This document shows positions 7,582 through 50,000 of a stretch of DNA of 64,000 nucleotides, in pieces. The stretch is taken from positions 8,822 through 72,821 of the IMG/VR virus record IMGVR_UViG_2795386107_000001; one strand, written 5' to 3'. This DNA is from a virus (lineage: Duplodnaviria; Caudoviricetes). Made by a program: the position numbers and the translations under genes. The notes under the pieces are model-generated. The model ran no database searches, was not told the DNA's origin, and saw only the letters and a program-made list of their open reading frames with translations. Numbering within the stretch: position 1 is the stretch's first letter; each line of letters starts with the position of its first letter.

Positions 7582-7902
7582 TTATTCGGCCTGCTGGGGC
7601 GTCCTCTTGGTCGTCAGGGCCTCGATCATCGGTGCGAGCTTGCTGGGCTTCCACAGAAGGTCGTAGCTGGTCTGGGAGGCGGCGAGGACGCCGAGGAGGG
7701 TGGCGGCCGTCAGCTTTCCGTGCTGGAACTGGTCCAGGCCCCCGTCGGCGCCGACGGCCGCGACACCGGCGATCAGCGCGGCCACGACCGCTACGACCTT
7801 CTTCCACTTCGCCGGCCAGGCCGGGCGCTGCACCACCGCGGTGAGAAGCGGGAGCACAGCGCCCACCTGGGCGCCGGTCGTCAGGGACTGCAGAGTGCTC
7901 AT
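7582..7902 (-). CDS. Holin
   Basis: 106 aa with 2-3 TM segments; PLLTAVVQRPAW..KKVVAVV and YDLLWKPS resemble actinophage holins; lies downstream of the tail genes. Confidence 0.75.
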   Translation of the reverse strand: MSTLQSLTTGAQVGAVLPLLTAVVQRPAWPAKWKKVVAVVAALIAGVAAVGADGGLDQFQHGKLTAATLLGVLAASQTSYDLLWKPSKLAPMIEALTTKRTPQQAE

Positions 7903-27835: not shown

Positions 27836-29128
27836 TCAGCCGGTCGGCTGGGTCCAGGTGCCGATGACGAACGACTCGGGGCGCGGGACCTCGAGGGCCA
27901 GGCGCTCGTCGGCACGGAAGGTGATCAGGCCCTTCTCGAAGTTGTCCGCGTTCTCCGAGGAGACGGTGACGCTGACGTTCTCCCTGTCGTGGAGCTGGGC
28001 ACCCAACCCGAAGGCGCCGATCAGGAAGTCGTCGTCCGCCATGGCCGTGGTCTCGACGACGTTGAGCCGCCAGACCTTCTTCTCCGCGCCGATGGCGACG
28101 GCGACGGCGACGCGGAACGCGCCGTTCTTGTCCTCTTCGACCTCGACGTGCTCCCACATCGTCGGGGACAGGACGATGCCGGTCGGCTCGTACTCGGCCA
28201 GGAGCGCCTTGGTGATGGCGCGCCGGATCTGGACGCTGTACTTGTCGGTCGCGAGGCCGGTGTACTGCTGGACTCCGGGGGTGTTGTAGATGCCGGTGAG
28301 GGACTGGCCGTCGCCGACGGAGTGGAGAAGGTCCCAGTCCTCCTGGTACTTGACGCCCTCGACCATGCGCCCGTTGATGAACGTCTTGAGGCGCGGCTCG
28401 TCGCTCAGGATGTTCTTATGCGCGTCGATCAGGTGGGCGACTTCGGCGACCGGGTACATCACCGGGGTGAGGGACAGCTTCGACCGCGGCGCGCGGCCCC
28501 AGGTGTCGGTGTCCGCGCCGGTTGCCGGGCTGACGCCGTCGGCGGCGTAGCGCTCCTTCACCTGTCGGGCGTTGTTGGTCCAGCCGGTCTCTCGGGCGCC
28601 GTAGAGGACGGCGTTCTTCGTCGAGGACTTCGGGAACAGGTCGCGGATGTGCCACTTGCGGTAGGCCCGCTCGGCGATGCCCAGGTTCTGGACGCTGCCG
28701 AGGGTCTGGTGCGTGACCGTGCCCGCTGACAGGGAGAAGATCGACTTCCCCTCCATCTCGGCACGGACGTACGGCCGATCGCGGAAGCCGGCCTCTGCGG
28801 CGCGCTTGAAGGAGTCGGACTCGACGAACAGGTCACCGAGCGACTTCTGCTCCATGGTCGGGGTCTGCCCGTAGTGGGTGGCCGCGGCCGGCGGGTTCTC
28901 CGGGGCGTCGAGGTACGACTTGACCTCGATCAGGCCCTGCTCGGCGTCGATGAGGGCCTTGATCTCCTGCGCCTCGCTGGAGACCTTGCGGAACTTGGTG
29001 GCCTGCTCGGTGGAGACGACGAAGCCGCCACCGTCCTCGACCTTGAATCCCTTGCTGATCTCCTCGGCCTCCGCGGCCTTCACCTGGAGCTGCCGCTGCA
29101 GTTCCTTGATGCGAGCGTTGTCGGGCAT
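27836..29128 (-). CDS. Major capsid protein (HK97 fold)
   Basis: N-terminal coiled-coil delta domain, IRDLFP, ILSDEPRLKTFINGRM..LLHSVGDG..TGI, FEKGLITFRADERLALEVPRPESFV. Confidence 0.95.
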   Translation of the reverse strand: MPDNARIKELQRQLQVKAAEAEEISKGFKVEDGGGFVVSTEQATKFRKVSSEAQEIKALIDAEQGLIEVKSYLDAPENPPAAATHYGQTPTMEQKSLGDLFVESDSFKRAAEAGFRDRPYVRAEMEGKSIFSLSAGTVTHQTLGSVQNLGIAERAYRKWHIRDLFPKSSTKNAVLYGARETGWTNNARQVKERYAADGVSPATGADTDTWGRAPRSKLSLTPVMYPVAEVAHLIDAHKNILSDEPRLKTFINGRMVEGVKYQEDWDLLHSVGDGQSLTGIYNTPGVQQYTGLATDKYSVQIRRAITKALLAEYEPTGIVLSPTMWEHVEVEEDKNGAFRVAVAVAIGAEKKVWRLNVVETTAMADDDFLIGAFGLGAQLHDRENVSVTVSSENADNFEKGLITFRADERLALEVPRPESFVIGTWTQPTG

Positions 29129-29213
29129 TTCTGCTCTCTCCCTGATGCTGGGGTGCGGTTGACGTGCGTCGCTCCGCCCGGCCAGCACCGGGACAGCCTC
29201 AACGCGAGGCGGA

Positions 29214-38800: not shown

Positions 38801-41800
38801 CTGGTCCTCCTCGCTGTCGCTGGTGTTGTCCGGGGCGTTGGCCTCGTCGCGGTTGTTCTCGTCGTCGCGGCGGTCGTTGCCGCCGTCGTCCTCGCCCCGC
38901 GCGATCCGGGCGGCGCGGCGGAACCGCTCGGCCGCGCGCTCCCCATCGGGGCCACCCAGTTCGTACATCTCCGCGAGGGAGTCGAGCCGGTCGGCGGCGT
39001 CGCGCAGCTCGGCGTCGGGGTCGTCGGAGTCCGCCGCGCGCCCCATGGCGTCGGTGACGTCGCGGATCTCTGGAAGATCGTCCCCGCCCGCTTCGTCGGT
39101 GGCCTGGCGCACCAGGCCGGACATGCGGTCGGTGCGGTCCTTGATGTCGCTCCGGCCGCTGACCGGGGTGGCCTCCGGCTCGTCGACCGCGGGCTCGTCG
39201 ACGTCGGGAGTACCGTCGGTGCCGGTCGTGCTGGTCTCGTCGACGTTGGGCTCGGAACGCTCGTACCTGTGGTTGTCGGGGATCTCCTCGTCCGGGTAGC
39301 GCAGCCGCACTTGGGCGTCGGAGTTGTAGAAGCGCTCCTCACCGTCGTTGGTGACGATGCGGGTACGGCCGCGGCCGGTACGCGCGGGCGGCTCGGCCAC
39401 GGTGTGCGTACGGCCGTCGGCGTCGGTGTACCGGTCGCCCGGCTCCAGGTCGGCGGCGTTCCGCATCTGCGCCGGACGCAGGTCGCTGGTGTCGCGGCCT
39501 TCGGCATCGGCGAACATGTCCGGCGTGCCGAACTCGTCGGCAGGCCGGACCTCCGGGTTGTCCGGGTCCGCGGTGCTGTCCGCCTGACGGGTGGTCGGCT
39601 CGTCGACGTCGAAGAGGCCGCCGGGCTCCTCCCTGGTCTGCTTGGGCTTGGGCTCCTGCTTCGGGGCGCGGCCGGCGCGGCGGGCCTCTTCCGCTTCGAG
39701 GACCTGCAGGCGGGTGCGGTCAACACCGGACAGTTCCCCGCCGTTGGCCATCTCGCGGCCCATCAGGTCCACGATCTCGTCGCGAATCTCGCCATCGTCC
39801 ATCGAGGACGGAGCCTTGGACCCCTCGGGGCGTACGGCGTCGAGCTGGTCGGACACCTCGTCCGGAGTCAGGGTGACGGTGTCGTTGCCTTCCTCGCCGT
39901 CTGCCGCGCTCTGGTCGCCGCCCTGGTCCTGGTCGTCGTTGCTGTCGTTGCTGTCGTTGCTGTCGTTGCTGTCGTCGCCGAGGTCGCCTGTGCCCGGGGT
40001 GTCGGCCGGCGGCTCGTCGTCGCCTCCGTCGCCCGCGCTGCCAGCGTCCGGGGTGTTGGTCTCCTCGGTGTCCGGCGCATCGGCGTCCGGGGTGGCGTCG
40101 GTGGAGTCGCCGCCGTTGCTCTCCCACTCCTCGCGGCGGCGGCGCAGATCGGCCGCGGCCTCGTCGATGGCCTTGCGGTAGGCGCGGTATGCGCGCACCT
40201 CGGACGGGTCGGACTCCAGCCCTTCGCCGCCTTCCAGCGTCCATGCCCACTCCAGGAGTGCGCGGTGTACCTCGATGGGGCCCGTGACCTTGAGCGTGCC
40301 CTTACGGCCCGGCTTGGCCTCCTTGAGCGCCTTCCGGGTGTCCGGGTCCTCCATGGCCGCGGTCTCGTCGACGTTGAGGAAGTCGACGAGTGCCGCCGGC
40401 ATGGTCAGCGTGACGAAGTCCTCGGGCTTGTCCCACGCGTACTTGAGCGGTTCGCCGGGCTCCTCCGCGTCCGCGGTGTCCTGGCTCTCCGTGTCGTCAG
40501 GTCGGATGCTGGCGAGGGTGTCGCTGACCTCGTCCTGGGAGAGGCGAACGGTGTCGTCGTGCTCCTGGTCGCTGTTCTCGTCGCCGAGGTCGCCGAGGTC
40601 GCCGAGGTCGCCGAGGTCGCCGGTGCTCAGGGTGTCGGCCGACTGTCCCTCGTCGCCTGTACCGCTGGCGTTGTCGGGCCCCGCGGTGTTCGTCTCCTCG
40701 GGGCCCGATGCGTCGGCGTCCGGGGTCGTGTCGGTGGAGTTGCCGTCACCGTTGTCGGTCTGCGAGGCGTCGTGCGCCGGGGGGTTGGGGGTCAGACGCG
40801 CGAGGGTGTCGCGCACCTCGTCCTCGGTGAGGTGAACGGTGTCGTCCCTCTCCGGCTCCGGGTTCTGCTCGTCCCAGCGCTGGAGGTTAGCCACGGCTTC
40901 GTCGACCGCGGCCTGCAGCGGTGCCCGCTCCTCGCGCCGCTCCTTGGCCATCGTCTCGCGGTCGTGCTTCTTGTACCGCTTCTTGTCGAGTTCGTCGGGG
41001 TCAATCTCGGGCTTGGCGTCGAGGTCGGTGATGCGGGCGACGACCTCCTCGAGCAGGTTGGCCCGTGCCCGTGCGTGGTCGATCTGCGGGGTGAGGTCTG
41101 CGGCTGCGTGTGCGGACTGGAGCAGGGCTATTTGCTCGTCCAGCTCGGGGACCTTGGCCCGGTCCGACTCCTGCAGGGCGGGCGCCTTGTCGAGAGCATT
41201 GCCAAGGCGGGTGATCATGCCCGACCCGGCGCCCTTCTTCTGGAGGTCTTCGACCGTGCGCTCAAAGTCGGAGTTCCGGAGGTCCGGGAAGCCGACGTGC
41301 GCGACGAGCCTGCCGTCCTCCTTCCGCTCCGTACGGACGCCGAAGTCCAGGCCGCGGAACTGGCCGATGACGTGCCACGGGCTCATGCCCTCGCGGTTGT
41401 GATCCAGGAGCCGGGCGGTCACCTGGCGGTGCAGCGCCTTGCCGGCGTCGGAGCGCTCGCCGTACGGGGAGCCGCCGATGGTCATGGTGAAGCGGTCGCC
41501 GGCCTCTTGGATGCGGGGCAGAGCCTGCTCGCGGCGCTGGATGCCGTCGCGGGTGGCCTGGGATTCCTGGCGCAGCTCATCGAGGGCTTCGGCGCGACGG
41601 ATACGCTCGGCGGCCTCGTTGTGCTGGTCGATCTCAAGGTCCTTGAGACGGCGGCGGGCCTTCATGAGATGACTCATGTAGGGGTTGCCGCCCATCTCGG
41701 CTTCCATGGTTTCGTAGTCGAACTCGGCGCCGTCGATCTCCTGGACGACGTCGCTGGTGTCGCCCTCCGTCGGCTCCGGCCGCTGGATGTCGACCAGGCC

Positions 41801-44800
41801 CTCGGCCTTGGCGGCGACGAACCCGGCCTTCCAGCCGTCCATGGAGCCCTTGGTCCCGAAAATGTCGATCTCGACCTCGGGGTTCTGATTGCCGTAGCGC
41901 AGGATGCGGCCGTTGCGCTGCTCCATCTGCGCCGCGCCCCAGTCGAGGTCGACGTGCGTGAGGGAGATCATGCGGTCCTGGGCGTTCATGCCCGTGCCCG
42001 CGACGGCGCTGGAACCGATCAGGACCGAGATCTCACCTTCGCGGGCCTTGCGGAACAGCTCCGTCATGTCCTCGGGCTTGCCGGACTTCTTGGCGTCCTG
42101 GACAAAGGCGATCTTGTCGGCGGGGACGCCGCCGGTGACCATGAGCTGCTTGAGTTCGGCGTAGGCGTCGAAGCCGCCCTTGTTGTCGCTGTCCGGGACG
42201 CCTTCGTTCAGGAAGATCATCTGGAGGGCGCCGGGGACGGGGTGGTCCTCGTCGCTGCCGTAAGCGACCTTGTAGACGCGGTCCTTGGTGGCGTGGTACC
42301 GCTCGATGTGCCGGTCCGCGACGGCCTTGAGCTTGTTGCCCGCGGGGGCGTTGCCGTCGACGAGCCGCGGGTCCAGGGCCACGCTGGTGCCCTCGTTGGA
42401 CACCGTGAGCATGTTGTCGTCGACCAGGGCGCCCTTGCGGGTGCGGATCTGCTGAGGCTCACCGTTGTGGATGGCGCGGCCGCGGGCGACGAGCCCCTTG
42501 AGACGCTTCTTCTGGTCCGGGGTCGCGTCGACCAGGATCAGGTTGTGGGTGCCGCCCTTGAGCTTCGGCCGGGGAATGCCGACGTCGTCGGCCCGCTTGG
42601 TGTCCGCGACCAGGCCCCACATGGTCTTCATGGCGCGCTTGTTGTGGAACTCGGAGAAGCGCTCCACGACGCGCAGGCCAGACCCGTCGGGGGCGTTCTC
42701 GATACGCAGGGTCTTGCGGCCGAAGGTGTTGGCCCACAGGTCCGGGGCGCCCGCCTTGTAGGCGTCGAGCACCCACGGCGCCGCGAACTGGAGCATGGTG
42801 AACTGCTCGCTGATGCTGTTGGACAGCGGCGTGCCGGTGGCGAGCGTGATGGTGGCGCGGCCGCCGCGGCGGCGGTGCAGGTCGGTGGTCTTCTGGTGCA
42901 GGTCGACGCCGCGGATGGACGCGGGGTCGCCGCCGGCCTCCTTGGAGCGGAAGCCAACGCCCTTGTAGCGGTGAGCCTCGTCGACGACGAAGTAGTCGAA
43001 GCCGAGGTCGTCCCAGTACGTCTCGCCCGGCTTCCGCATGGGCGCGGCGTTCTTGTTGATGTTCCGCTGGACCGTCGCGATGCGCTGCTCGATCTTCGCG
43101 ACGATGAACGGGTGGTTGGGGTTGTCGGCGTCCTCGTACTGGCGGTCAAGCTGCTCGCGCAGCGACTCCAGCTCCCGGAACTCGTACTCCTCCTGAGCCT
43201 CCGGGCTCATCTTGATGGAGCCGAAGGCCTCTTCGGTGAAGATGACCAGGTCCGGCTTGTTGGCGCGCAGCCACTCCAGCGTGCTGGAGCGCCGGTCACC
43301 GGCCAGGTCTGCCGAGGTGATCAGGTGGATATCGGCGTTCGGGTACAGGTACCGCGCTTCGTCCGCCCACTGCTTCGCCAGGTGGTTGGGCACCACGGCC
43401 ATGGGCTTTTCGATCTGCCCGGACGCCTTGAGCGCCTGGGTGCCCATGACGAGCGTTGAGGTCTTGCCGAGGCCCACCTCGTGGGCGAGGATCACGCCCC
43501 GCTCGAACTGCATCCGGGCGGCGCCGGCGAGCTGCCAGGAGTGCGGGGTCCTGTCGGGCGTGAAGCCTTCCAGGGTGGGCGACATGCCCTCGTACGAACG
43601 GACGACGTGCCCGTTCATGATGCGGTTGTAGGACTCAGTGAGGGTCGTCAGTCGCTCGGCGTTCGCCGTGGCGTACTTGGCGAACTCGGCCCGCATCTGG
43701 TCGGCCTTCTGCCGGATCAGACGGGAGGTCGTCTCGTCGACGTCCTTGCGCTTGTCGTCGTGGTAGACGGTCAGCGATCCGAAGCCGAGGACCGCGCGGG
43801 CGATCTCTACGGCGGACTTGCCCTTGGTGCCCTTCTCCGGGTTGGCCGGGACGCCGTACATGACGTTGTTGGCCTCGGGCACACGGCCGGTGTTGAGAAT
43901 CCAGCCGTACCGGTCATCGTGCGCAACGCGCAGGGTCCGGTCGCCCAGGTACTCGCGCAGGAAGCCCTGCAGCAGCTCCGGAGGCGTCCAGTGTGCGCCC
44001 ATCTCGGGCGTGAACTGGCCGATGGTCCGCTCCGGCGGCTGTACCGCCTCCAGCGCGGCCACGTTGACCGCGTACGCCGGGTCCTTCTCCGCGGCCTTGC
44101 GGGCGGCGTCGAGCTTGTCGCGGACGGCACCGGACAGGTAGGCGCTGGCCAGATCGAGGCGGCCGGTGGCCGGGTTGGTGAAGACCTCGTTACCGAGGCG
44201 CTTCAGCGCCTCCTGCGGGTCGACGTCGAGGAGGCGCGCGACTTCCCCGAGGTCCACGTCGCCGTGCGCGGCGACGACCGCGGCCAGGGCCGCCTTCGGG
44301 TCGTCGGTCGACGTCAACTGACGCCGACGGGCCGCAGCGCGCTCGGTGAAGATGCGGGAGAGGACCGGCTCACCGGTCTTGGCGTCCCACCGCTCCAGGG
44401 CGAGGACAGCCGCGGCGTCCGGGTCGGCTCGGAAGTAACCCCACGCCGTCGGGCGGCCGTTCTTGGTGCGGTGCTGGCCGGGCTTGGACAGCGGCCCGTA
44501 CTGCTCGACGTAGGCGGCGTGCAGGTCGCGGAGCTGGGCGCGGAGGGCGTCGGCGCGCTCCTCCTCGTCGTTCTTGCGGTCCAGCTCGCGCAGTTCGGCG
44601 GCGACGTCGCGGAGCTGCATGAGGTCGCGGAGCTGGGCGGTGTTGCCGTCGGCCGGGTCGATGAGGACCGGCTCAGCGCCGTTGACGTGCTGGTAGAACT
44701 GGCCGTCGTCGCCCTCGTAGAGGCGGCCGGTCCAGTCGTTGGCGTGCTTCTCCCGGGCGGTCTGCAGGTGCACCGGGGGCCGGTCGTCGCCGTCGGGGTG

Positions 44801-47800
44801 CGGCTCGTAGCCGCGGCCGTCGGCCTTCGCCTTCTCAGCCATGTCCTCGAGCGCCTTGCGGAGCTGTTCGGCTGCCTTGGCCGGGTCGCCCTTAACGGTG
44901 ACCTCCGGCCCGTACGGGCCGGACTGGGTGGTCAGCGTGCCGAGGATGTGCTCGGGGTGCTCGTCGAAGTAGGCGTTGATGTGGTGCGGGGTGCCGTTGA
45001 GGTCCCGTTCGGGGGCGTCCAGCCATGAGGTGTCGGCCGGCTCGGTGCCGTCCTCACGGCGCCGGAACACGAGCACGTCGGTGGTGACCCCGGTGCCGGC
45101 GTCGTTGAAGACGCCGGAGGGCAGACGGATGGCGCCCACCAGGTCGCCGTACTTGGCCATCTGACGGCGGGCCTTGTCGCCCTTGGAGTCGAGCGTCTGC
45201 CGGGAGGTGATGACGGCCGTGATGCCGCCCGGACGGACGAGGGCGATCTCCTTGGTGACGAACCCGTTGTGCAGGCTCTCCGCCGGGTACCGCTTGTCAT
45301 CGAACGGGACGCGGGCGAACGGCACGTTGCCGATCGCCGCGTCAAAGGTCCCCGGCCGGGCGTCGCTCTCCGCGAAGGACTCGTTCAGGACGTTGGCGTG
45401 CGGGTAGATCGCCTGAGCGATCCGGGCCGTGGTCGGGTCGAGCTCCACACCGGTCAGGCGCGCACCGTCGGGGGCGACGCCGAAGAACGTGCCCGCGCCG
45501 GAACCGGCTTCGAGGACGTCGCCACGGTCGAACCCGAAGGCGCGCAGGCCATCCCACATCGCCTCGGCGATGGGCTGCGGCGTGTAGTGCATGGACAGCA
45601 CGCCGCGGGACGCCTGCCGGAACTCAACCGGCGTCAGAACGCGCTGCAGCTCGCTGCGGATGTCGCTGTACTCGGACCACCGCTCGTGGTCCTTGGCGAA
45701 CTTGCCGTACCGAGTGCCGCCCTGCTGGTAGCGCGGTTCCTTCTCGTTCGGCTCGCTGGCGAAGATGATCGGCACCGAGCCCCACCCGGACCAGCGGGCG
45801 AGGATGCGCTTCTCCTCGTCGGTGGCCGGCCGGTTCTCGGCCTCCAGCTTCTTGAGGACCTTGATGGCCTCGACGTTGGCGGCCGCACGCGCGCGTGCGC
45901 CCTTGGGCGCGTCGGCCGGGTCCGGCCGGAACCGCGCTACGCGTCGTACATCGCGTCCCTGATCTCCTGCAGGTGCTGCTCCATCGGCGTCTGCTCGGGC
46001 GCCTTCTCCGCGCCCTCCTCCGGCTCGGGCAGAAGCTCCCTCAGAACCATCGCCGTCGCGTCCGCCCTGATCTGCTTGAGCCGGCCGACCCTCTCGTCGT
46101 AGCCCTCCGGCTCCGGCACCGTCTCCTCCAGCGCCTGCTCCGCGACCAGAATCCGGCTCTCGATCTCCCTGGCCTTCGTCTCCACGAACGCCTCCGGATC
46201 GTCCATCGCCGCCCACTCCTGCGGCAGGTACGTCCGCCAGTGATCCCGGACCGTCGGACTGAACATGTTCATCGTCGTCGCCTCCCAGCGCTGCACGGAG
46301 CGCGGCCTGCTGTGCCTCGATCTCCTCGCGGGAGATGACCTTCTGGTCGTCGTTCCCGCCATTCTTGCGGACTGCCTCACGGGCTGACTCAATCGCGTGC
46401 AGTGCCACGTTGATGGAATTGAGTCGGGTCTTGGCCTTCGCCCGGTCCGACTTGTCCGCGTCGCGGTCCGCGGCCTGCACGGACATGTCCCGCGACAGTT
46501 CTTCCGTCACCCGGTGCAGCTCCGCGAGGAGACCCTCGGGAATGACCAAGTTCCGGCCCTTGATGTGGTGGCCCTTCTTGCTGCTGGGCACCAGCGGGTT
46601 CACGCCGTCGTCCCAGCCGTACCGGTCCCGGAACAGGTGGAAGAGGTACTGGCGTTCCTCGGATGCGTTGGAGAGCCGGTCGCCGAGGCGGGCCGTCTGG
46701 TACAGCTCGACGAACATCTTCGGGACGAACACGCGCCGCTCACGGCCCCAGGTGCGCTCACCTCGGGTGTCCGGGTCCTGGTCGTAGGCGCGGACCAGCG
46801 CGGCCAGGGCGGCGGCTCGCGAAGGGTACGCCGTGTTGCCGTGGCCCCAGGAGTTCTTGCCCCAGGTCCAGCCGATCTCTCGGCGGTCGCGCCCGTAGCC
46901 GAGGTTCTGGTTGTAGTCGATGTAGCCGTACCCGGCGCCGCCGTCGATGCTGATTTGCCCGTTGGAGTCGGGGTTGTCGACGCGGGCGAGGAGCTGTTCG
47001 ACCTCGGGGGTGGTGTCCCGGCGGTTCAGTTCGGCCTCGATGGCGGCCATGCGTGCCTCGCGGGCCGCCTTGACGTCGTCCGACTCGTAGTTCGAGCGGC
47101 CGCGGCGCAGCTCGGTGTACTCGTCGAGCAGCTTCTTGGAGTCGACGGCGTCGGGGGTGTCCCGGTCCGTGATGGCCCGCTTCTCCCGCTCGCGTCGCTC
47201 CTGCTTGATGTCCTCCAGGCGGCCCTCGAGGACCCGCTGAGCCTCCGGGGACGCCTTGCGGAAGTCCCGCTTGATGAGTTCGTTGTATTCCTCGGACAGG
47301 GCTTCGTCGTCGAGGTCAGCGACCGGCGGCCGGTCGGCGATCTGCTCGGCGCGGCGCCGCTGCTGCTCACCGACGATCGCGTCGTGCCGCTTCTGCAGGG
47401 CGGCGCGTACGGTCTGCTCGGCCTCGTGGTCGTCGCCGGCGGCCTGGTGCAGGGTGACCCGGTGGGCGACGGCGTCGCGGGCCTTGGCGAGGTCCTCCTC
47501 GGCCATCGTGGTCAGGTCGGTGTTCTCGTCGACCAAGGCCTGGGAGCGGCGGCGGCGCTCGCTGTAGATGGCGCGCTCGACGTCGTTCGCGGGCTCGCCC
47601 CTGCGGGAGCCGTACGTGCCGCGTTCCTGCTGCGACTCCTTGACGCGGGCCTCGATGTCGGCGTCGCTGAGCTGGGTGGCGTCGCGGGCCGCGGCTTCGT
47701 CCCGCTCCTTCCGCCGGCGCTTCTGCTCCTCGGTGATCAGGTCGATCTCGCTGTCGAGGCGCCGACGGTTGGCTTCGGAGCGGGAGGTGCGGTATTTCGT

Positions 47801-49957
47801 GTACCGCTCGTTCTTCATCGTGTTCAGCCGGGCGTCGGTGGCGTCGCTGATCTCGCGGCGCAGCGCGGCAGTTTCGTCGCCTCCGTCCCCGGGTGCGTCG
47901 GGGGTGCCCTGGCTGGTCTCGTCGGTGACGTGGACGTTGCGGCCCTGGCGGGCGAGATTGCTCAGGACCTCCGAGATGCGTTCGTCCCGGGTGGCGTCGG
48001 TCATGTTCGCCTGGGTCTGCCAGGAGCCGACGGGGCCCATCGTCGGGGCCCACTTCACGGCCTTGACCTTGCCAACCGCGTCGTAGTCCCGCTGGTCGCC
48101 CTTGATGGTGCCGCGGAAGACCATGACGCGCTTGGCGGGCTTGCCGTCCTTGCCCGGCTTCATCACCCACGCCGCGGTGACGCGGTCCCGCTTCTGCGGG
48201 TTCTGCGCGGCAAGGTGGAGGCGTGCCATGACCTGGGCGCCCTGCGGGGGGTACTGCGGGACGGGGACAACGACGCCGTTGATCGTGGCCTTCGGCGGGT
48301 AGCCGCGCTCGCTGGTGGCGGCGACCTGCCCGTCGGGGCCGTACAGGGTGATCGCGCCGCCGTCGTTGACGAAGTGGTAGCCGTCGACGCCGTCGACGGG
48401 CCGTGCGCCGTCCGGGAGGGCCGGGGTGGGCTCCGGCTGTGCCTCCGGCTGCTGGGGGGCGTCGGGGGCGTTCGGGGCCTGGGGCGCGGCTGCCGGGGCG
48501 TTCTGGCCGGCGGGGGCGCCACCGCCCTGTTCCAGCTGGAGCTTGGCGAGGGCCTCGTCGACGACCTCGCGGAAGGACTTGTTGTCCTCGGACCGCCACT
48601 TGCTCACGGTGACGTGGGAGAGGTCCAGCGGCTTGCCGTCCTCGCCCTTGAGGTTGGAGGCGACGAGGAAGCGGCCGAAGCGCTGTGCTTCCTGCTGGGT
48701 CTCGAAGCGGGGGTGCAGGGTGAAGCCACTGCCGGTGGCGACGAGTCGCCAGTTGCCGTCTCCGTCCCGGTGGGTGACGAGCTGTCCGCGTCCGACGAGC
48801 TTGAGGCGGTCGTCGGCGATGAGGCTGTCCAGCTTCTGGAGCGCGGCGCGGGACGTGGGGTCGGTGTGCTGGCTCAGGCGCTCGCGGATGCCCTGCCAGT
48901 GCGTGCGGACGTCCTGCAGGGTGGTGAACCGTCGCCCGTCCGCGGCCGGGGCCGCCGGGGTAGCCGGGTTGGTGGTCGGCGCTGGGGTGGCGTCGAACTC
49001 CTTGCGGGCTCGGATGATGGCGCCCTGGATGTTCTCGCCCTTGGTGGAGCGCCAGTCACGGGCGGCGCGGTCGAGCTGCGGGTCAGAGAAGTCGAACGGC
49101 TGGCCGAACTTGGTGATCTGCCCGTTGACGGCGGTCTTGTCGAGGTGGTCGGCGAACCGGGCGGCGTCCTGCGGGGTGTCGAAGTCGCCGGCGCCGTCCA
49201 TGCGCTGTCCGGTGCCGGTGGCCGTCAGGTACCAGCGACCGTTGTCGTCACGGAGGATCGCGAAGCGGCCGTTCGGGGTCACCTGCAGGTCGTCGTCGTA
49301 GGCAACCGAACGCAGGAAGGTGGCCATCTCCGGCCTGGTACCGGGCTGCTGGGCGAGCTGCGTGAAGTGGCGGCGGACGGCAGCGGTGTCGGCGTACCGG
49401 GCTCCGGCTGCGTTCTGCTGGTTGGGAAGCGCGTCGAGGTTGACGGGGTGGGCGCCGTCTTCCGGCTCGTCCTGGTCGTCCTCGCGGTCCGGGCCGTCGC
49501 CCTCGTCGTCGCCGATCGGGCGGCCCTGGTCGTCGGCGTTGTGGGGGTCGTTGGGGGTGTCCGGGTCGCCGTCGTCGTCCCGGGCCACGCCGTTGCCGCG
49601 GCGCGGGTCCTCGTGCCGACGCTCGTCCTCGGCTGCGACCTTGTTCTCGTCCTCGGTCGGCGCGGTGCCGTCGGGACGGGCGACCATCGTCACCCACTTG
49701 GCACTCGTGGTGTGCCGGCGTCCCCGGAACTCGTTGGGGCCGCTTTGGTCCTGGACGAGGACGCGGTCGTGCGGAAGGGCGCGCACGACGCGCGCGAGCT
49801 TGCCGCCCCAGAGCCTGACCGTTCCACCCGTCTCGATGAAGCGGCCCTTGCTGTCGCGGGGGTGCAGGGCAGGGTTCCACGGCCGACGCGTGACCTTGAC
49901 CTCGAGGTCGCGATTCAGGTCCTGCGACTCAGCCTGTGCAGTGGGGCGATTCAGCAT
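32816..49957 (-). CDS. Giant (~5,713 aa) DarB-like polyvalent protein: N6-adenine DNA methyltransferase + SNF2/SF2 helicase + accessory domains
   Basis: MTase HYTP, LEAGSGAGTF, IGNVPF (about 45050-45900); helicase AHEVGLGKT, VDEAH (42971-42982), ATGTP, GTGMN, QRNGRILRYG; N-terminal WNPALHPRDSKGRF; lies between portal and protease. Start 49957 inferred from promoter geometry; the ORF track gives 49969. Confidence 0.9.
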   Translation of the reverse strand: MLNRPTAQAESQDLNRDLEVKVTRRPWNPALHPRDSKGRFIETGGTVRLWGGKLARVVRALPHDRVLVQDQSGPNEFRGRRHTTSAKWVTMVARPDGTAPTEDENKVAAEDERRHEDPRRGNGVARDDDGDPDTPNDPHNADDQGRPIGDDEGDGPDREDDQDEPEDGAHPVNLDALPNQQNAAGARYADTAAVRRHFTQLAQQPGTRPEMATFLRSVAYDDDLQVTPNGRFAILRDDNGRWYLTATGTGQRMDGAGDFDTPQDAARFADHLDKTAVNGQITKFGQPFDFSDPQLDRAARDWRSTKGENIQGAIIRARKEFDATPAPTTNPATPAAPAADGRRFTTLQDVRTHWQGIRERLSQHTDPTSRAALQKLDSLIADDRLKLVGRGQLVTHRDGDGNWRLVATGSGFTLHPRFETQQEAQRFGRFLVASNLKGEDGKPLDLSHVTVSKWRSEDNKSFREVVDEALAKLQLEQGGGAPAGQNAPAAAPQAPNAPDAPQQPEAQPEPTPALPDGARPVDGVDGYHFVNDGGAITLYGPDGQVAATSERGYPPKATINGVVVPVPQYPPQGAQVMARLHLAAQNPQKRDRVTAAWVMKPGKDGKPAKRVMVFRGTIKGDQRDYDAVGKVKAVKWAPTMGPVGSWQTQANMTDATRDERISEVLSNLARQGRNVHVTDETSQGTPDAPGDGGDETAALRREISDATDARLNTMKNERYTKYRTSRSEANRRRLDSEIDLITEEQKRRRKERDEAAARDATQLSDADIEARVKESQQERGTYGSRRGEPANDVERAIYSERRRRSQALVDENTDLTTMAEEDLAKARDAVAHRVTLHQAAGDDHEAEQTVRAALQKRHDAIVGEQQRRRAEQIADRPPVADLDDEALSEEYNELIKRDFRKASPEAQRVLEGRLEDIKQERREREKRAITDRDTPDAVDSKKLLDEYTELRRGRSNYESDDVKAAREARMAAIEAELNRRDTTPEVEQLLARVDNPDSNGQISIDGGAGYGYIDYNQNLGYGRDRREIGWTWGKNSWGHGNTAYPSRAAALAALVRAYDQDPDTRGERTWGRERRVFVPKMFVELYQTARLGDRLSNASEERQYLFHLFRDRYGWDDGVNPLVPSSKKGHHIKGRNLVIPEGLLAELHRVTEELSRDMSVQAADRDADKSDRAKAKTRLNSINVALHAIESAREAVRKNGGNDDQKVISREEIEAQQAALRAALGGDDDEHVQSDGPGSLADVPAAGVGGDGRSGGVRGDEGQGDREPDSGRGAGAGGDGAGAGGLRREGRPAQADQGGRDGDGSEGASARAGGGRGEGARADADGAAPAGDQGRDVRRVARFRPDPADAPKGARARAAANVEAIKVLKKLEAENRPATDEEKRILARWSGWGSVPIIFASEPNEKEPRYQQGGTRYGKFAKDHERWSEYSDIRSELQRVLTPVEFRQASRGVLSMHYTPQPIAEAMWDGLRAFGFDRGDVLEAGSGAGTFFGVAPDGARLTGVELDPTTARIAQAIYPHANVLNESFAESDARPGTFDAAIGNVPFARVPFDDKRYPAESLHNGFVTKEIALVRPGGITAVITSRQTLDSKGDKARRQMAKYGDLVGAIRLPSGVFNDAGTGVTTDVLVFRRREDGTEPADTSWLDAPERDLNGTPHHINAYFDEHPEHILGTLTTQSGPYGPEVTVKGDPAKAAEQLRKALEDMAEKAKADGRGYEPHPDGDDRPPVHLQTAREKHANDWTGRLYEGDDGQFYQHVNGAEPVLIDPADGNTAQLRDLMQLRDVAAELRELDRKNDEEERADALRAQLRDLHAAYVEQYGPLSKPGQHRTKNGRPTAWGYFRADPDAAAVLALERWDAKTGEPVLSRIFTERAAARRRQLTSTDDPKAALAAVVAAHGDVDLGEVARLLDVDPQEALKRLGNEVFTNPATGRLDLASAYLSGAVRDKLDAARKAAEKDPAYAVNVAALEAVQPPERTIGQFTPEMGAHWTPPELLQGFLREYLGDRTLRVAHDDRYGWILNTGRVPEANNVMYGVPANPEKGTKGKSAVEIARAVLGFGSLTVYHDDKRKDVDETTSRLIRQKADQMRAEFAKYATANAERLTTLTESYNRIMNGHVVRSYEGMSPTLEGFTPDRTPHSWQLAGAARMQFERGVILAHEVGLGKTSTLVMGTQALKASGQIEKPMAVVPNHLAKQWADEARYLYPNADIHLITSADLAGDRRSSTLEWLRANKPDLVIFTEEAFGSIKMSPEAQEEYEFRELESLREQLDRQYEDADNPNHPFIVAKIEQRIATVQRNINKNAAPMRKPGETYWDDLGFDYFVVDEAHRYKGVGFRSKEAGGDPASIRGVDLHQKTTDLHRRRGGRATITLATGTPLSNSISEQFTMLQFAAPWVLDAYKAGAPDLWANTFGRKTLRIENAPDGSGLRVVERFSEFHNKRAMKTMWGLVADTKRADDVGIPRPKLKGGTHNLILVDATPDQKKRLKGLVARGRAIHNGEPQQIRTRKGALVDDNMLTVSNEGTSVALDPRLVDGNAPAGNKLKAVADRHIERYHATKDRVYKVAYGSDEDHPVPGALQMIFLNEGVPDSDNKGGFDAYAELKQLMVTGGVPADKIAFVQDAKKSGKPEDMTELFRKAREGEISVLIGSSAVAGTGMNAQDRMISLTHVDLDWGAAQMEQRNGRILRYGNQNPEVEIDIFGTKGSMDGWKAGFVAAKAEGLVDIQRPEPTEGDTSDVVQEIDGAEFDYETMEAEMGGNPYMSHLMKARRRLKDLEIDQHNEAAERIRRAEALDELRQESQATRDGIQRREQALPRIQEAGDRFTMTIGGSPYGERSDAGKALHRQVTARLLDHNREGMSPWHVIGQFRGLDFGVRTERKEDGRLVAHVGFPDLRNSDFERTVEDLQKKGAGSGMITRLGNALDKAPALQESDRAKVPELDEQIALLQSAHAAADLTPQIDHARARANLLEEVVARITDLDAKPEIDPDELDKKRYKKHDRETMAKERREERAPLQAAVDEAVANLQRWDEQNPEPERDDTVHLTEDEVRDTLARLTPNPPAHDASQTDNGDGNSTDTTPDADASGPEETNTAGPDNASGTGDEGQSADTLSTGDLGDLGDLGDLGDENSDQEHDDTVRLSQDEVSDTLASIRPDDTESQDTADAEEPGEPLKYAWDKPEDFVTLTMPAALVDFLNVDETAAMEDPDTRKALKEAKPGRKGTLKVTGPIEVHRALLEWAWTLEGGEGLESDPSEVRAYRAYRKAIDEAAADLRRRREEWESNGGDSTDATPDADAPDTEETNTPDAGSAGDGGDDEPPADTPGTGDLGDDSNDSNDSNDSNDDQDQGGDQSAADGEEGNDTVTLTPDEVSDQLDAVRPEGSKAPSSMDDGEIRDEIVDLMGREMANGGELSGVDRTRLQVLEAEEARRAGRAPKQEPKPKQTREEPGGLFDVDEPTTRQADSTADPDNPEVRPADEFGTPDMFADAEGRDTSDLRPAQMRNAADLEPGDRYTDADGRTHTVAEPPARTGRGRTRIVTNDGEERFYNSDAQVRLRYPDEEIPDNHRYERSEPNVDETSTTGTDGTPDVDEPAVDEPEATPVSGRSDIKDRTDRMSGLVRQATDEAGGDDLPEIRDVTDAMGRAADSDDPDAELRDAADRLDSLAEMYELGGPDGERAAERFRRAARIARGEDDGGNDRRDDENNRDEANAPDNTSDSEEDQDQGDEERRQRRDGDLDGGAADPDGGGADTPDAPSDDEENGNSSDAPDNADDQQDEPDAEDQDNEDEQDDRNRRRRRRRRNGGNGGPGGPGGLGGPGLPHLNLPDLNVPAATGTGGDGEGHAPNGRGRRSPVRHGDVDSLRRAWRNGEGLTAAEDTPERRAALAQAAEREGMVLSPGGGLVTWPEPQDDGTTLWRFAQARNGTNLPGLTLRTDNPEEARALASRFEEITGSDGQPFDWHQPWGPSTVSQWRDSEGRNLQRALHAARDDFEQQRAAETTDAPVLPADLTELDDDALDALVSQPLSQDDMMRVAAEMDRRDNPDPVIRNAVPDTPPENAEEAERRGKAMDEALGFGNADITRPRRTQEDIIRAAFADFDEARYQQAIEETNGYFFNRKHKYGDNRPDERSLFSGGELAKFGRWREYASEELINWYDANGGRVTYNQFKLQYRDNDRRDREIFEEEQRRQAEEEQRQQADVGQAPAEPATTEPEPYDPAKPRFTDEEALRDHIRNGRLDEVPEDQRADEPSPEERGEIADAESTQLSDGGRLLIYGNEAARAGVGRGQRFNVALPGSMQPLFRDGFHNPERAREVARVLEGITDADGNPFPWDAPDAAERARAFRSADGNTLFGEAAERLNGVGNVYEPWNSDRGQALHHRTWNQQEAEWNTREEEAGYSIPVDPADLRPGDEISFPMATSRGQNISPRDEYVGTVHATVTGEGEPFRYRSEFSAVGNPQLHRYPAEGSWTNQYGEHANIDEAFPNLGVVRRRPRPDEASTRDDGRDDRSTNETTPQAEPTSTPEPAARPEPTPDRAPAEPEPATPDVPAEEPQGEPEPVGGQPANWARVSDLVPGDMVRMDGRRRNGRAVTRSGYVFTGPVRVEVTRNGRTEHMWRTYVTENPDGTGKRGHVFTPLNATAARAEAPDDTVPGSPASGAQSAVQTGSLPDRVPTDRNGRGLFPGSTVTGVDGLRSREGTVTGATSTTVSVRWDNDDTADGLTPTTLTVTGGDRPDGWTASGQRVTPGHIVTDSDGALLGPVDEVNGDRVTITTAEGTTTRSAGDLRVAGEVRDDTNPATAPVTGLDDPAAADLKEDDVVVLDLDGTLTTVAVTGTQRDGDRVTIDYADTTTGEIGQIDVDAATVLPRAQGADGSAPDLGPEDAPDTPDDLTVHEPPHRVEPVTGPTVDPELTTGDRDVIGDLADGPDDDLDAQQGAVRITTDLPVTPEQAAALAAQLRDSADPSTPEGRAALRAADHLDRAVGRTPPAELGRPRPSNASQVAEDDTIALPDTRGNGVTVYRVRDVQDGPGGVRSLLLEGEDGRTRRRVVHGAMPLWQLGEPQPEGDNTALVPAGPNSPALPPAGAHRDPNPAPQADADRIIRDHARSLAVRIIDEAIAGTEPPGDIHALREQIAQRLTPEALQEARTAAREDAQAALDAAAVNGPERSAAMLALGAVAQDSHTATVRAALRTINDLEPLPDESDEDLAARARDLLSLIPDRIAGTPNGPDTDGDADVNRTVAGHVDDAVNAVLQQLQAAGVDPGDAERIARAITRRMDGSRQATARQIARRVAAASPQAGRQPGLLARIVAALVRLAKRIALLVKAGAEKIAEKWRDARERIARLRAFLGRLARRVRDWPESRRLARLHRALDLPEADGESLAARVSHWAGLLPEPGRFGQAQRRVTWWQPTTWAQLAAGRLPGRSDRVRWSPDQAADGGPGPTGLRHMAALRAAGGDVDQAVTRRLADSLGDDFGSDPHGTLQHADDYVATTERRLVNLQAARTSSTIPDDPDLEVEIAAARMEAAAARREWENLRSRYAAAVPDAVAAALAEIRDMGPGGNAGIVFGPDSTPDAERAVRGVQRLVPRSWLNTPAARRVTAVDGDAGRYEPDGQRITVADLADEGLGTAGYALAQHLAQHLDDLDAAQRIFWFTQTHTGRPGARRMRRSALSRILSRQQTQPDTGDTLARSVQSMFNGDWYLDDDLRAFLLGLLATR
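39935..39972. repeat. 9-bp in-frame tandem repeat (GTCGTTGCT x4; Ser-Asn-Asp)
   Basis: Directly visible in an acidic linker of the giant gene. Confidence 0.85.
40580..40622. repeat. 9-bp in-frame tandem repeat (GTCGCCGAG x4-5; Gly-Asp-Leu)
   Basis: Directly visible in an acidic linker of the giant gene. Confidence 0.85.
45937..46272 (-). CDS. TnpV-like small protein nested in an alternative frame of the giant gene
   Basis: GGAGG (46281-46285) 8 nt before ATG; 111 aa with very high GC3; DHWRTYLP..DDPEAF..EGYDERVGRLKQIRADATAMVLRELL resembles TnpV-type proteins. Confidence 0.8.
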   Translation of the reverse strand: MNMFSPTVRDHWRTYLPQEWAAMDDPEAFVETKAREIESRILVAEQALEETVPEPEGYDERVGRLKQIRADATAMVLRELLPEPEEGAEKAPEQTPMEQHLQEIRDAMYDA

Positions 49958-49964
49958 GCCGCGG

Positions 49965-50000
49965 ACCATGTAGAGCGCGGGTGCTTAGCGTCGCGGCCTC
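49965..50000 (-). promoter_or_regulatory. Bipartite promoter-like motif (giant gene, leaderless geometry)
   Basis: GAGGCCGCGACGCTAAG with CATGGT at the 22-nt offset; ATG 7 nt later. Confidence 0.7.

What the first reader, a model, noticed from the sequence alone, without database searches (positions are those of the whole stretch)
45937..46285. A complete TnpV-like gene nested in a second reading frame of the 17-kb giant gene
Seen: just before the methyltransferase domain, the +1 frame on the same strand has GGAGG-N8-ATG and a 111-codon ORF with nearly all G/C third positions. Over the same bases the giant frame loses codon bias and reads as a G/A/D/R-rich linker, with no stop before it and no new start after it. 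Knowledge: small TnpV-type genes commonly precede SNF2/methyltransferase genes in mobile elements. Inference: an upstream head-internal protein gene read through the partner gene and fused to the MTase-helicase, leaving a dual-coding segment that still makes the partner. Caveat: high GC3 in the nested frame makes an open shifted frame fairly likely by chance.
Basis: partly seen in the sequence, partly recalled or inferred. Interest (0 to 1): 0.88.

Follow-up and report, generated by a model that had tools for sequence, protein, structure and literature searches.

The report
Small gene hidden inside giant gene
A complete 111-codon gene for a small helical protein is written one base out of frame inside the floppy linker of this Streptomyces phage's 5,717-codon anti-restriction gene, and comparison with dozens of related elements shows that selection keeps both readings, so one stretch of DNA very probably encodes two proteins.

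Summary
On the minus strand GGAGG (46285-46281), 8 nt, then ATG 46272 to TAG 45937 gives a 111-aa ORF in the +1 frame of the 5,717-aa giant ORF (49969-32816). Codon bias switches frame exactly at these two points. In the window alone the open giant frame could be chance (P about 0.29). Comparison excludes chance. The giant frame runs through the nested gene in 34 of 36 related Streptomyces loci. Nested codons ending in T number 0 of 1213 where T would make a giant-frame stop, against 221 of 2845 elsewhere. Ordinary coding shows no such avoidance. The same overlap occurs in 9 of 10 actinobacterial plasmid loci, in 4 of 5 chromosomal copies, and in equivalent form in 3 proteobacterial phages. 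"TnpV-like" is only a remote relationship: the protein itself misses Pfam TnpV, and relatives hit below threshold. The overlap is older than this phage's N-terminal fusion. Translation of both frames is inferred, not shown. This scan had already reported the same gene-within-a-gene on other DNA. My literature searches found no description of it.

The parts
32816..49969 (-). Giant ORF of 5717 aa: a phage-type polyvalent, DarB-like protein. It consists of an N-terminal 1232 codons with no family match, the dual-coded linker, an LPD36-MTase-SNF2 core, and about 2060 C-terminal codons with no family match.
   Evidence: ORF. (no family for residues 1-1343 or for the last 2061). (phrog_10089, DarB-like antirestriction, E 5.7e-276).
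46281..46285 (-). Shine-Dalgarno GGAGG, 8 nt before the nested ATG. In the giant frame it reads as Gly-Gly codons.
   Evidence: It is conserved as GGGAGG in the window's clade (GAGAGG in L008) and as a purine-rich GAAGGGG-type stretch, with variants, in the second clade.
45937..46272 (-). Nested gene in the +1 frame of the giant ORF: 111 codons plus TAG. It encodes an acidic (pI 4.4), all-helical small protein remotely related to TnpV.
   Evidence: ORF. (37 orthologues, 30 invariant columns). (AF2 pLDDT 94.0, five helices). (remote link to TnpV). (pI).
45938..46273 (-). Giant-frame codons 1233-1344: a Gly/Ala/Asp/Arg-rich, low-complexity linker read from the same bases as the nested gene.
   Evidence: Stop avoidance and G-bias at the shared position.
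45776..45931 (-). Start of the LPD36-like helical domain (FRPDPAD...ANVEAIKVLK...ARWSGWGS, with GWGS as the GxGU motif). It begins 2 codons after the nested TAG in the giant frame.
   Evidence: sequence. The motif definition comes from passages of PMC5512222.
40742..45907 (-). DarB-like core, comprising an N6-adenine methyltransferase and a SNF2-type helicase.
   Evidence: phrog_10089 over residues 12-1733 of the piece that starts at 45940; phrog_11801 DNA methyltransferase, E 1.3e-156. (SNF2-rel_dom 33.7 bits against cut-off 24.9, about 43223-43504; Helicase_C 22.5 against 23.5, about 41891-42079; Eco57I 17.2 against 25.3, about 45155-45382).
52840..55293 (-). Context: portal protein with a C-terminal head-morphogenesis (MuF-like) region, upstream of the giant gene.
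   Evidence: phrog_2662, E 1.1e-85; phrog_2468, E 2.1e-22.
29354..31549 (-). Context: head maturation protease fused to a NUDIX domain, directly downstream of the giant gene. The major head protein follows at 27836-29188.
   Evidence: phrog_80, E 7.8e-17; phrog_1198, E 1.6e-15; phrog_10, E 2.1e-37.

Best explanation
This is a true same-strand gene-within-a-gene.

Giant frame. Ribosomes that start at the giant ATG (49969) read straight through 46273-45938. There they make a disordered linker of about 110 residues, rich in Gly, Ala, Asp and Arg. The linker ties the 1,232-residue N-terminal region to the LPD36-methyltransferase-SNF2 helicase core. That core belongs to a DarB-like polyvalent protein encoded in the head module. 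By analogy with P1 DarB, the protein is probably packed in the capsid and delivered with the DNA to counter restriction.

Nested frame. Other ribosomes start internally at GGAGG-N8-ATG (46272) in the +1 frame. They make a separate 111-aa acidic helical protein and stop at TAG 45937, two codons before LPD36 begins.

Role of the small protein. It is a distant TnpV relative and the constant companion of the LPD36-MTase-SNF2 module in mobile elements. It most likely works with that module as an assembly, delivery or regulatory partner.

Origin. The small gene supplies the ordinary coding signal. The giant's linker is the overprinted reading of it. The overlap is old and is shared with plasmids and other phages. 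This phage lineage added a long N-terminal region in front of it.

Shown versus inferred. Both ORFs, their conservation, and selection on both frames are shown. Translation of each frame, internal initiation, virion packaging and the small protein's role are inferred.
For: 1. Nested gene. It has stand-alone-length homologues of 105-112 aa at 53-84% identity. 37 orthologues share 30 invariant columns. The start codon and an SD-like purine run are conserved. The AF2 model has pLDDT 94. GC3 is 0.89-0.96 in the nested frame.

2. Continuity of the giant frame.
- In 34 of 36 related loci it is open from 2.2-4.2 kb upstream to the end of the held DNA.
- Indels before the nested ATG, and between the nested TAG and the FRP motif, are multiples of 3: -3, +3 and +27 nt.
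- There is no usable start codon between the nested stop and LPD36.

3. Stop avoidance.
- Across 37 loci, nested codons ending in T number 0 of 1213 where the next codon starts AA, AG or GA, against 221 of 2845 elsewhere.
- In ordinary coding of the same genes the figures are 1767 of 36055 (4.9%) against 5730 of 99377 (5.8%).
- In alignment columns with mixed context, T3 occurs in 54 of 962 safe cells and 0 of 811 dangerous cells.
- P(open) under synonymous resampling is 0.14-0.47 per locus, yet all are open.

4. Composition of the shared position. In four-fold codon boxes G3 is 0.76 observed against 0.36 expected, in all 35 loci tested. This gives the linker G-starting codons.

5. Generality.
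- In 9 of 10 plasmid loci from Micrococcales, Propionibacteriales, Mycobacteriales and Kitasatosporales, the helicase frame is open across the whole small gene. P(open) is 0.003, 0.008, 0.058, 0.09, 0.15, 0.39, 0.43 and 0.52. T3 is 0 of 320 in dangerous contexts against 68 of 849 in safe ones.
- The exception, L044, has the giant gene starting after the small gene. It has 4 stops in that frame, with T3 4 of 37 in dangerous contexts. It serves as a natural control.
- In most plasmid loci the big ORF has candidate starts, several with an SD (for example AAGGAGG-N5-ATG in L042), and a shared N-terminal peptide upstream of the small gene.
- Four more chromosomal loci behave alike, with P 0.43, 0.068, 0.054 and 0.074.
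- LPD36-MTase lies downstream in all 14 non-phage loci tested.
- Vibrio phage VvAW1 (GC 0.50) has an equivalent +1-frame ORF, and P(giant frame open) there is 0.0003.

6. Not an assembly error. Independent DNA contigs X2 and X3 span 44500-47500 with 0 gaps.

7. Context. The giant gene lies between the portal and the protease and major head genes.
Against: - There is no direct evidence that either frame is translated here. I found no Ribo-seq, proteomics or strain-specific RNA data. The only RNA-library cover is two short metatranscriptome contigs (46050-46290 and 46121-46422), and DNA carry-over is not excluded.
- One 82-nt, depth-3 contig from an RNA library shows 1-nt and 4-nt deletions at 45934 and 45939. 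At that depth it may be an error or another strain.
- 2 of 36 related loci (L008, L017) have the giant frame broken 65-92 nt after the nested stop while the small gene stays intact. The small gene can therefore outlive the giant.
- In the window alone the open frame has P about 0.29 by chance.
- Related loci share ancestry, so cell counts overstate the number of independent events. The column test and the distant plasmid and phage loci mitigate this.
- Amino-acid identity between the two Streptomyces clades is the same in both frames (0.56 and 0.55). The linker sequence itself shows no extra constraint beyond openness and composition.
- The small protein's function is unknown. It has no fold match in PDB or BFVD and no PDB sequence match.
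Confidence: 0.8

Rival explanations
1. Frameshift reading. The small ORF is not a separate product. Ribosomes that start at its ATG slip by -1 into the methylase-helicase frame and make a TnpV-MTase-helicase fusion, as in IS3 transposases or dnaX. Alternatively, giant-frame ribosomes shift into the nested frame.
For: The giant frame is the -1 frame of the small gene in every locus examined. In the window no independent start exists for the MTase-helicase part after the nested stop.
Against: No X_XXY_YYZ slippery heptamer lies in the nested frame in 44 of 45 loci. Stop avoidance covers the whole nested gene, not just its 3' end. In most plasmid loci the big ORF has candidate starts, several with an SD, and a shared N-terminal peptide upstream of the small gene. 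No protein of 196-2000 aa carrying the small protein in frame was found (weak evidence). None of the best 150 profile hits exceeds 331 aa.
Confidence: 0.05
2. The giant ORF is only apparent. The N-terminal region, the small gene and the MTase-helicase are three separately made proteins, and the open frame across the small gene is a by-product of GC-rich third positions.
For: With G or C at nested third positions, giant-frame codons rarely start with T. The open frame has P about 0.29 in the window alone. Public annotation sometimes calls the small gene alone.
Against: The upstream region has no stop, and the MTase part has no start before codon 1399. T3 is 0 of 1213 in dangerous contexts against 221 of 2845 in safe ones, with no such avoidance in ordinary coding. 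Indels at both junctions are in threes. P(open) is 0.0003-0.008 in lower-GC relatives that are nevertheless open. The one locus where the genes really are separate (L044) does have stops in that frame.
Confidence: 0.05
3. The nested ORF is a silent relic. The DNA once encoded a separate TnpV-like gene, but now only the giant frame is used.
For: No expression data exist for this phage. The annotated close relative CP108533.1 lists only the giant CDS (the PLSDB gene table is incomplete).
Against: A relic would lose its start, its stop or its frame. All 37 orthologues keep a start codon, an SD-like run, the same stop position and 30 invariant residues, at 54-93% identity to the window protein. 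GC3 stays at 0.89-0.96 in the nested frame. The gene survives intact in the two loci where the giant frame is broken.
Confidence: 0.05
4. Sequencing or assembly artefact. Indels in this record falsely join or shift frames.
For: One depth-3, 82-nt RNA-library contig shows deletions at 45934 and 45939.
Against: Two independent DNA assemblies span 44500-47500 with 0 gaps, showing 7 and 53 substitutions. 34 of 36 independently assembled relatives have the same frame relations.
Confidence: 0.01

Closest known systems
Rz/Rz1 spanin genes of phage lambda (recalled, not tested here)
   Same: A complete gene with its own start lies wholly inside another gene, on the same strand and in the +1 frame, in a tailed phage. 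One of the two readings is of low complexity.
   Different: In that pair the embedded Rz1 is the small, proline-rich, presumably younger reading, and the two products are known to form one complex. Here the embedded gene carries the ordinary coding signal and a confident fold. The host gene's reading is the low-complexity one and serves as an inter-domain linker of a 5,717-aa protein. Partnership of the two products is only inferred.
comS nested out of frame in srfAB of Bacillus subtilis (recalled, not tested here)
   Same: A small gene is embedded in another frame inside a giant multidomain gene.
   Different: comS is 46 codons, is lineage-restricted, and is functionally unrelated to the host enzyme. 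The present pair is kept across several orders of Actinomycetota. An equivalent +1-frame ORF is present in three proteobacterial phages.
TnpV, Pfam PF14198 (Tn4451-type transposon protein; its function is unknown to me)
   Same: It is a small helical protein of mobile elements. 14 of 60 members of the window protein's wider family hit PF14198. In the four hits whose details I saw, three of four align residues 2-81 to profile positions 24-111 of 111 and the fourth aligns residues 27-80 to positions 52-110. The nearest ESM Atlas clusters are auto-named TnpV family.
   Different: The window protein does not hit the profile at E<=10. Relatives score 18-24 bits against a cut-off of 27. This is a distant sister group, not a recognised member.
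P1 DarB and phage-type polyvalent proteins with the LPD36-adenine MTase-SWI2/SNF2 module (PMC5512222, passages read)
   Same: The host gene has LPD36 with a GxGU motif, then an MTase, then a SNF2 helicase. It sits in a head-gene module.
   Different: It is much longer, with 1,232 and about 2,060 residues of unknown function on either side. In the main text of that paper the words TnpV, overlapping and frameshift do not occur. Its supplementary files were not seen.

Membership tests
Pfam TnpV (PF14198) | Match to the family profile at or above the gathering score (27 bits) | tested here: not met
   The window protein has no TnpV hit at E<=10. Family relatives score 18.1-23.7 bits against the cut-off of 27.
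Pfam TnpV (PF14198) | Remote homology traceable through intermediate sequences | tested here: inconclusive
   14 of 60 members of alignment A3 hit PF14198 at E<=0.01, the best at 5.1e-05, and the alignments are colinear. The ESM Atlas's nearest clusters are named 'TnpV protein family protein' at scores 0.93 and 0.91. No profile-profile test against the Pfam seed alignment was possible.
Pfam TnpV (PF14198) | Small protein (about 110-120 aa) encoded on a mobile element | tested here: met
   It is 111 aa and all-helical in a phage. Relatives occur on plasmids.
Same-strand embedded overlapping gene pairs (Rz/Rz1, comS/srfAB type) | Inner ORF wholly inside the outer ORF, on the same strand and in a different frame | tested here: met
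   Nested 46272-45937 lies inside 49969-32816, in frame +1.
Same-strand embedded overlapping gene pairs (Rz/Rz1, comS/srfAB type) | Inner gene has its own ribosome-binding site and start codon | tested here: met
   GGAGG-N8-ATG is present. A start codon is present in all 37 orthologues and an SD-like purine run in nearly all, in sequence only.
Same-strand embedded overlapping gene pairs (Rz/Rz1, comS/srfAB type) | Both frames maintained by selection | tested here: met
   Nested frame: 30 invariant columns in 37 sequences. Outer frame: T3 is 0 of 1213 against 221 of 2845, with the control and the column test. G3 is 0.76 against 0.36. Distant loci agree.
Same-strand embedded overlapping gene pairs (Rz/Rz1, comS/srfAB type) | Both protein products detected | not testable with these tools
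Polyvalent / DarB-like proteins with the LPD36-MTase-SNF2 module | LPD36 helical domain with a GxGU motif directly N-terminal to the methylase | tested here: met
   The sequence ...ARWSGWGS... lies at codons 1391-1398. The motif is as described in PMC5512222. This was judged by inspection, not by a profile.
Polyvalent / DarB-like proteins with the LPD36-MTase-SNF2 module | Adenine methyltransferase followed by a SWI2/SNF2-type helicase | tested here: met
   phrog_10089 DarB-like, E 5.7e-276; phrog_11801 methyltransferase, E 1.3e-156. PF00176 scores 33.7 bits against 24.9. Eco57I and Helicase_C fall below their cut-offs.
Polyvalent / DarB-like proteins with the LPD36-MTase-SNF2 module | Delivered with the DNA (virion-packaged) | not testable with these tools
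   Only position supports this: the gene lies between the portal and the protease and major head genes.
Programmed -1 ribosomal frameshift sites | Slippery heptamer X_XXY_YYZ in the upstream frame | tested here: not met
   None was found in 44 of 45 nested genes scanned, including the window.

The most novel reading that the evidence does not exclude
The overlap may be more than a historical accident. It may be an ancient, functional piece of gene architecture shared by DarB-like and polyvalent methylase-helicase genes of phages, plasmids and integrative elements across bacterial phyla. In this reading the partner gene is deliberately kept inside the linker that precedes LPD36. Two consequences would follow. 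First, the two products would be made from one message in a ratio set by ribosome traffic, because elongating giant-frame ribosomes pass over the internal SD. Second, recombination that shuffles polyvalent modules could never separate the pair. This would be one of the oldest and most widespread long same-strand overlapping gene pairs in cellular mobile elements. It would also give a function to the unexplained TnpV family, as a cofactor, chaperone or regulator of the LPD36-MTase-SNF2 module.
Probability: 0.3. Interest if true: 0.85.

Novelty: new member of a known kind. Interest (0 to 1): 0.72.

Why it matters
- Long, fully embedded, same-strand overlapping genes with evidence of selection on both frames are rare outside small viruses. 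This is a clean case with an internal negative control (L044).
- Annotation pipelines call either the giant gene or the small gene and pick truncated starts for the helicase. As a result, a whole protein family that always accompanies an important anti-restriction module is largely invisible.
- The result ties the functionless TnpV-like family to the LPD36-methylase-SNF2 module of polyvalent proteins. That gives a concrete partner to test.
- It shows how a high-GC third position lets a neighbouring gene read through an existing gene and recruit it as a linker. This is a route to giant multidomain proteins.

Tried and rejected
Searches that gave nothing:
- Pfam, PHROGs and NCBIfam on the 111-aa protein gave no hit.
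- The PDB sequence search gave none.
- Foldseek against PDB gave 0 of 35 rows at E<=0.001. Against BFVD the best hit was E 0.33. The fold therefore gives no function.
- The search for fused, longer forms gave none of 457 candidates (weak evidence).
- tblastn of the small protein against 50,697 phage records gave no match. A local HMM was needed to see the weak proteobacterial equivalents, and those scores are only 8-21 bits on a 15-ORF database, limited to the N-terminal HW..P motif.
- The viral scan with the LPD36-MTase piece returned only contigs already held.

Tests that did not discriminate:
- Amino-acid identity of the two frames between clades is 0.56 against 0.55.
- The L071a row is invalid, because its reference frame held 10 stops.
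- The P(open) rows for L008 and L017 are not meaningful, because their reference stretches held 41 and 39 stops.

Read data:
- The joints listed for X2 and X3 rest on sides of 20-26 nt from other contigs, and I treat them as chance matches.
- Bins without RNA-library cover say nothing.

Literature:
- The searches were 'TnpV + helicase + methyltransferase' (1 irrelevant paper), 'TnpV' (38 papers; 25 listings read, none on an overlap) and two searches on overlapping or nested genes (listings only).
- For PMC5512222 I read passages only.
Its File S2 and Table S1 could mention neighbouring TnpV-like genes.

Genome G271 is marked unpublished.
Full report
WHAT IS THERE

The window is part of a 72,821-base virus record. 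All features described here lie on the minus strand. One ORF runs from ATG 49969 to 32816 and encodes 5,717 aa. Inside it, GGAGG (46285-46281), 8 nt, ATG (46272-46270) and TAG (45939-45937) define a 111-codon ORF in the +1 frame.

GC at the giant's third codon position is 0.90 overall. It drops to 0.30-0.55 exactly between the nested ATG and TAG, while GC at the giant's first position (the nested third position) rises to 0.90-1.00. Over these bases the giant frame reads a linker of 110 residues: G34, A18, D14, R14.

The giant frame has no stop here. Its only nearby start codons are GTG at codon 1252, inside the overlap, and GTG at codon 1399. The latter already lies behind the GWGS motif of the next conserved domain.

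IS IT MORE THAN CHANCE?

For this one sequence the answer is not clear. I kept the nested protein and redrew its codons from the giant gene's own usage. The giant frame stayed open in 29% of 2,000 trials. The comparison with relatives decides the matter.

The small protein has 10 homologues of stand-alone length, 105-112 aa, at 53-84% identity. I fetched 36 related loci: 21 from Streptomyces genomes and 15 from IMG/VR.

In 34 of the 36, the frame equivalent to the giant frame is open from 2.2-4.2 kb upstream of the nested start to the end of the DNA held. The two exceptions, L008 and L017, are shifted 65-92 nt after the nested stop. Inside the nested gene, all 37 sequences have zero giant-frame stops.

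A giant-frame stop arises only when a nested codon ends in T and the next codon begins AA, AG or GA. The evidence on this point is as follows.
- Such T's number 0 of 1,213, against 221 of 2,845 in harmless contexts.
- In ordinary coding parts of the same giant genes (35 loci, with L008 and L017 dropped) the rates are 4.9% (1,767 of 36,055) and 5.8% (5,730 of 99,377). There is therefore no general avoidance.
- Counted by alignment column, to reduce pseudo-replication, T3 occurs in 15 of 52 never-dangerous columns and in 0 of 11 always-dangerous ones. In the 48 mixed columns it occurs in 54 of 962 safe cells and 0 of 811 dangerous cells.

A second signature is the composition of the shared position. 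In four-fold codon boxes the nested third base is G in 0.76 of cases against 0.36 expected, in each of the 35 loci. This makes giant-frame codons start with G, giving Gly, Ala, Asp, Glu or Val.

A third signature concerns indels, which are multiples of three at both junctions. Before the nested ATG there is a -3 nt difference. Between the nested TAG and the conserved FRP motif there are +3 nt differences in the second clade and +27 nt in L007. Only the giant frame codes at these positions.

THE NESTED GENE IS REAL

The 37 orthologues, 54-93% identical to the window protein, share 30 invariant columns. All keep a start codon and the same stop position, and nearly all keep an SD-like purine run. 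The AlphaFold model has pLDDT 94.0 and five helices. The protein is acidic, with pI 4.4.

WHAT FAMILY?

The window protein has no match in Pfam, PHROGs or NCBIfam, even at E<=10 for TnpV. A profile of the 37 orthologues finds 524 small proteins at E<=1e-3 among 1.84 billion representatives. The best 150 are 75-331 aa long.

Of 60 aligned family members, 14 hit Pfam TnpV (PF14198) at E<=0.01. In a detailed scan of 10 members, 4 hit at 18.1-23.7 bits against a cut-off of 27. In three of the four, residues 2-81 align to profile positions 24-111 of 111; the fourth (P0023) aligns residues 27-80 to positions 52-110. The nearest ESM Atlas clusters are auto-named 'TnpV protein family protein', with scores 0.93 and 0.91.

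I therefore call it a distant TnpV relative, not a member. No fold or PDB match gives a function.

THE HOST GENE

Residues from codon 1355 onward match PHROG 10089, 'DarB-like antirestriction' (E 5.7e-276). They also match a methyltransferase PHROG and the SNF2 Pfam domain.

The segment that starts two codons after the nested TAG reads FRPDPAD...ANVEAIKVLK...ARWSGWGS. It fits the LPD36 domain with its GxGU motif. Passages of PMC5512222 describe that domain as the constant N-terminal companion of the methylase-SNF2 dyad in polyvalent proteins.

The gene lies between the portal (52840-55293) and the protease-NUDIX fusion and major head protein (29354-31549 and 27836-29188). A close relative, annotated as a plasmid record, shows the same portal-then-giant order, with the giant called as one 17.5-kb CDS.

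THE OVERLAP IS OLDER THAN THIS PHAGE

tblastn finds the small protein in 24 plasmid records, and I read 11 regions. One of these, H1 (CP108533.1), is the close relative and is not counted among the ten distant loci below.

In all 10 distant loci the small gene lies directly before, or inside, an SNF2/helicase-related ORF that carries LPD36-MTase. That ORF is always in the same relative frame.
- In 9 of the 10 that frame is open across the whole small gene, which is 91-185 codons long, and for 145-350 nt upstream.
- P(open) under resampling is 0.003 (Microbacterium), 0.008 (Rhodococcus), 0.058 and 0.15 (Nocardia), 0.09 (Ruania), 0.39 (Streptomyces), and 0.43 and 0.52 (Nocardioides and Paenarthrobacter).
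- T3 is 0 of 320 in dangerous contexts against 68 of 849 in safe ones.
- The exception is L044. There a roughly 30-kb gene starts at the small gene's stop, the frame has 4 stops, and T3 is 4 of 37 in dangerous contexts. It is a natural negative control.
- Upstream of the small gene the big frame has candidate starts, several with an SD (for example AAGGAGG-N5-ATG in L042), and a shared peptide: a basic patch followed by GQLSLE.LW. In these plasmids the big gene therefore starts 110-165 nt before the small gene and swallows it.

A profile search of 401 Actinomycetota genomes found the family in 7. Of 5 copies in 4 genomes, 4 are overlapped in the same way, with P(open) 0.43, 0.068, 0.054 and 0.074. 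The fifth is an extra stand-alone copy just before the giant ORF.

Earlier notes of this scan report the same arrangement on other DNA, in Bacillota and in proteobacterial phages. I checked three cultured phages that hold LPD36-MTase.
- Vibrio phage VvAW1, Burkholderia phage BcepMigl and Pseudomonas phage Itty13 each have a 107-109-codon ORF in the giant +1 frame. Each has an SD-like run and an ATG, and ends about 50-160 nt before LPD36.
- These ORFs are the three best hits of my family HMM among 15 candidate ORFs. The scores are weak, at 8-21 bits.
- In VvAW1 (GC 0.50) the giant frame stays open in only 0.03% of resamplings.

I did not test the Bacillota claim.

ALTERNATIVES

- A -1 frameshift fusion is unlikely. 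No slippery heptamer is present in 44 of 45 nested genes, stop avoidance spans the whole gene, and no in-frame fused form was found.
- Assembly error is excluded. Two independent DNA contigs span 44500-47500 with no gaps.
- A silent relic is unlikely, given the conservation of start, stop and residues, and the survival of the small gene in the two loci where the giant is broken.

AGAINST MY READING

- Nothing here shows translation.
- The RNA evidence is two short metatranscriptome contigs, and one low-depth contig has deletions at the nested stop.
- The loci are related to one another.
- The linker shows no constraint on its sequence beyond openness and composition.
- The small protein's role is a guess from constant adjacency.

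VERDICT

This is a real, selection-maintained gene-within-a-gene: a small, distantly TnpV-like gene overprinted by the linker of a DarB-like polyvalent protein gene. Its reading is partly supported: the dual coding holds, membership of TnpV is not established, and the fusion history differs from what was proposed. It is a new member of the known kind of embedded overlapping genes. It has already been seen elsewhere by this scan. It was not found in print by my searches (supplements not seen).

Noticed in passing
L042:6871-6985, L043:6576-6690, L047:1342-1504, L038/L039 about 7850-7900 (giant frame): In plasmid relatives the big methylase-helicase ORF begins with a shared N-terminal peptide: a basic patch (M)ARR.. 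followed by GQLSL(E/D).LW (DQLALWDL in pTC1 and pNOCA01). From memory it resembles the QL[SD]LF beta-clamp-binding motif. The window's giant protein has no such motif.
   Followed up: partly
L038:7580-7924 (pTC1) and L039:8450 (pNOCA01): Public annotation looks inconsistent here. In pTC1 an antisense 'hypothetical protein' overlaps the conserved N-terminal peptide of the big ORF. In pNOCA01 the SNF2-related gene is started at a GTG inside LPD36. In pTC1 the helicase is started 22 nt before the small gene's ATG.
   Followed up: partly
L044:6995-14240 (Streptomyces plasmid, linear, 545 kb): A TnpV-like gene is followed by an annotated CDS of about 29.9 kb (about 9,968 aa) called 'UvrD-helicase domain-containing protein'. 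This is the only locus where the small gene is not overlapped.
   Followed up: partly
L071:3440-4340 (genome handle G298): Two tandem TnpV-like copies lie here. The first is stand-alone and ends exactly where the >12-kb ORF opens. The second is nested inside that ORF.
   Followed up: partly
L008:10331-10400 and L017:10331-10425: In 2 of 36 relatives the giant frame is shifted just after the nested stop, while the small gene is intact. These are possible pseudogenes or sequencing errors.
   Followed up: no
window 29354-31549 (-): The head maturation protease is fused to a NUDIX hydrolase domain and to a further conserved domain, phrog_6439.
   Followed up: no
window 52840-55293 (-): The portal protein carries a C-terminal region that matches 'head morphogenesis' (MuF-like) PHROGs. 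According to PMC5512222, MuF is one of the anchors of phage-type polyvalent proteins.
   Followed up: no
window 46050-46422: Two root-metatranscriptome libraries from one study hold contigs at 1-3 mismatches. They cover the nested gene's 5' half and its start junction. Transcription is not proven, because DNA carry-over is possible.
   Followed up: partly
L041:4906-14213 (Streptomyces plasmid next to T4SS coupling-protein genes): The same small gene is nested in a CDS of at least 3,453 aa, with about 700 residues in front of it. This is a second case of N-terminal accretion upstream of the overlap, here in a conjugative context.
   Followed up: partly
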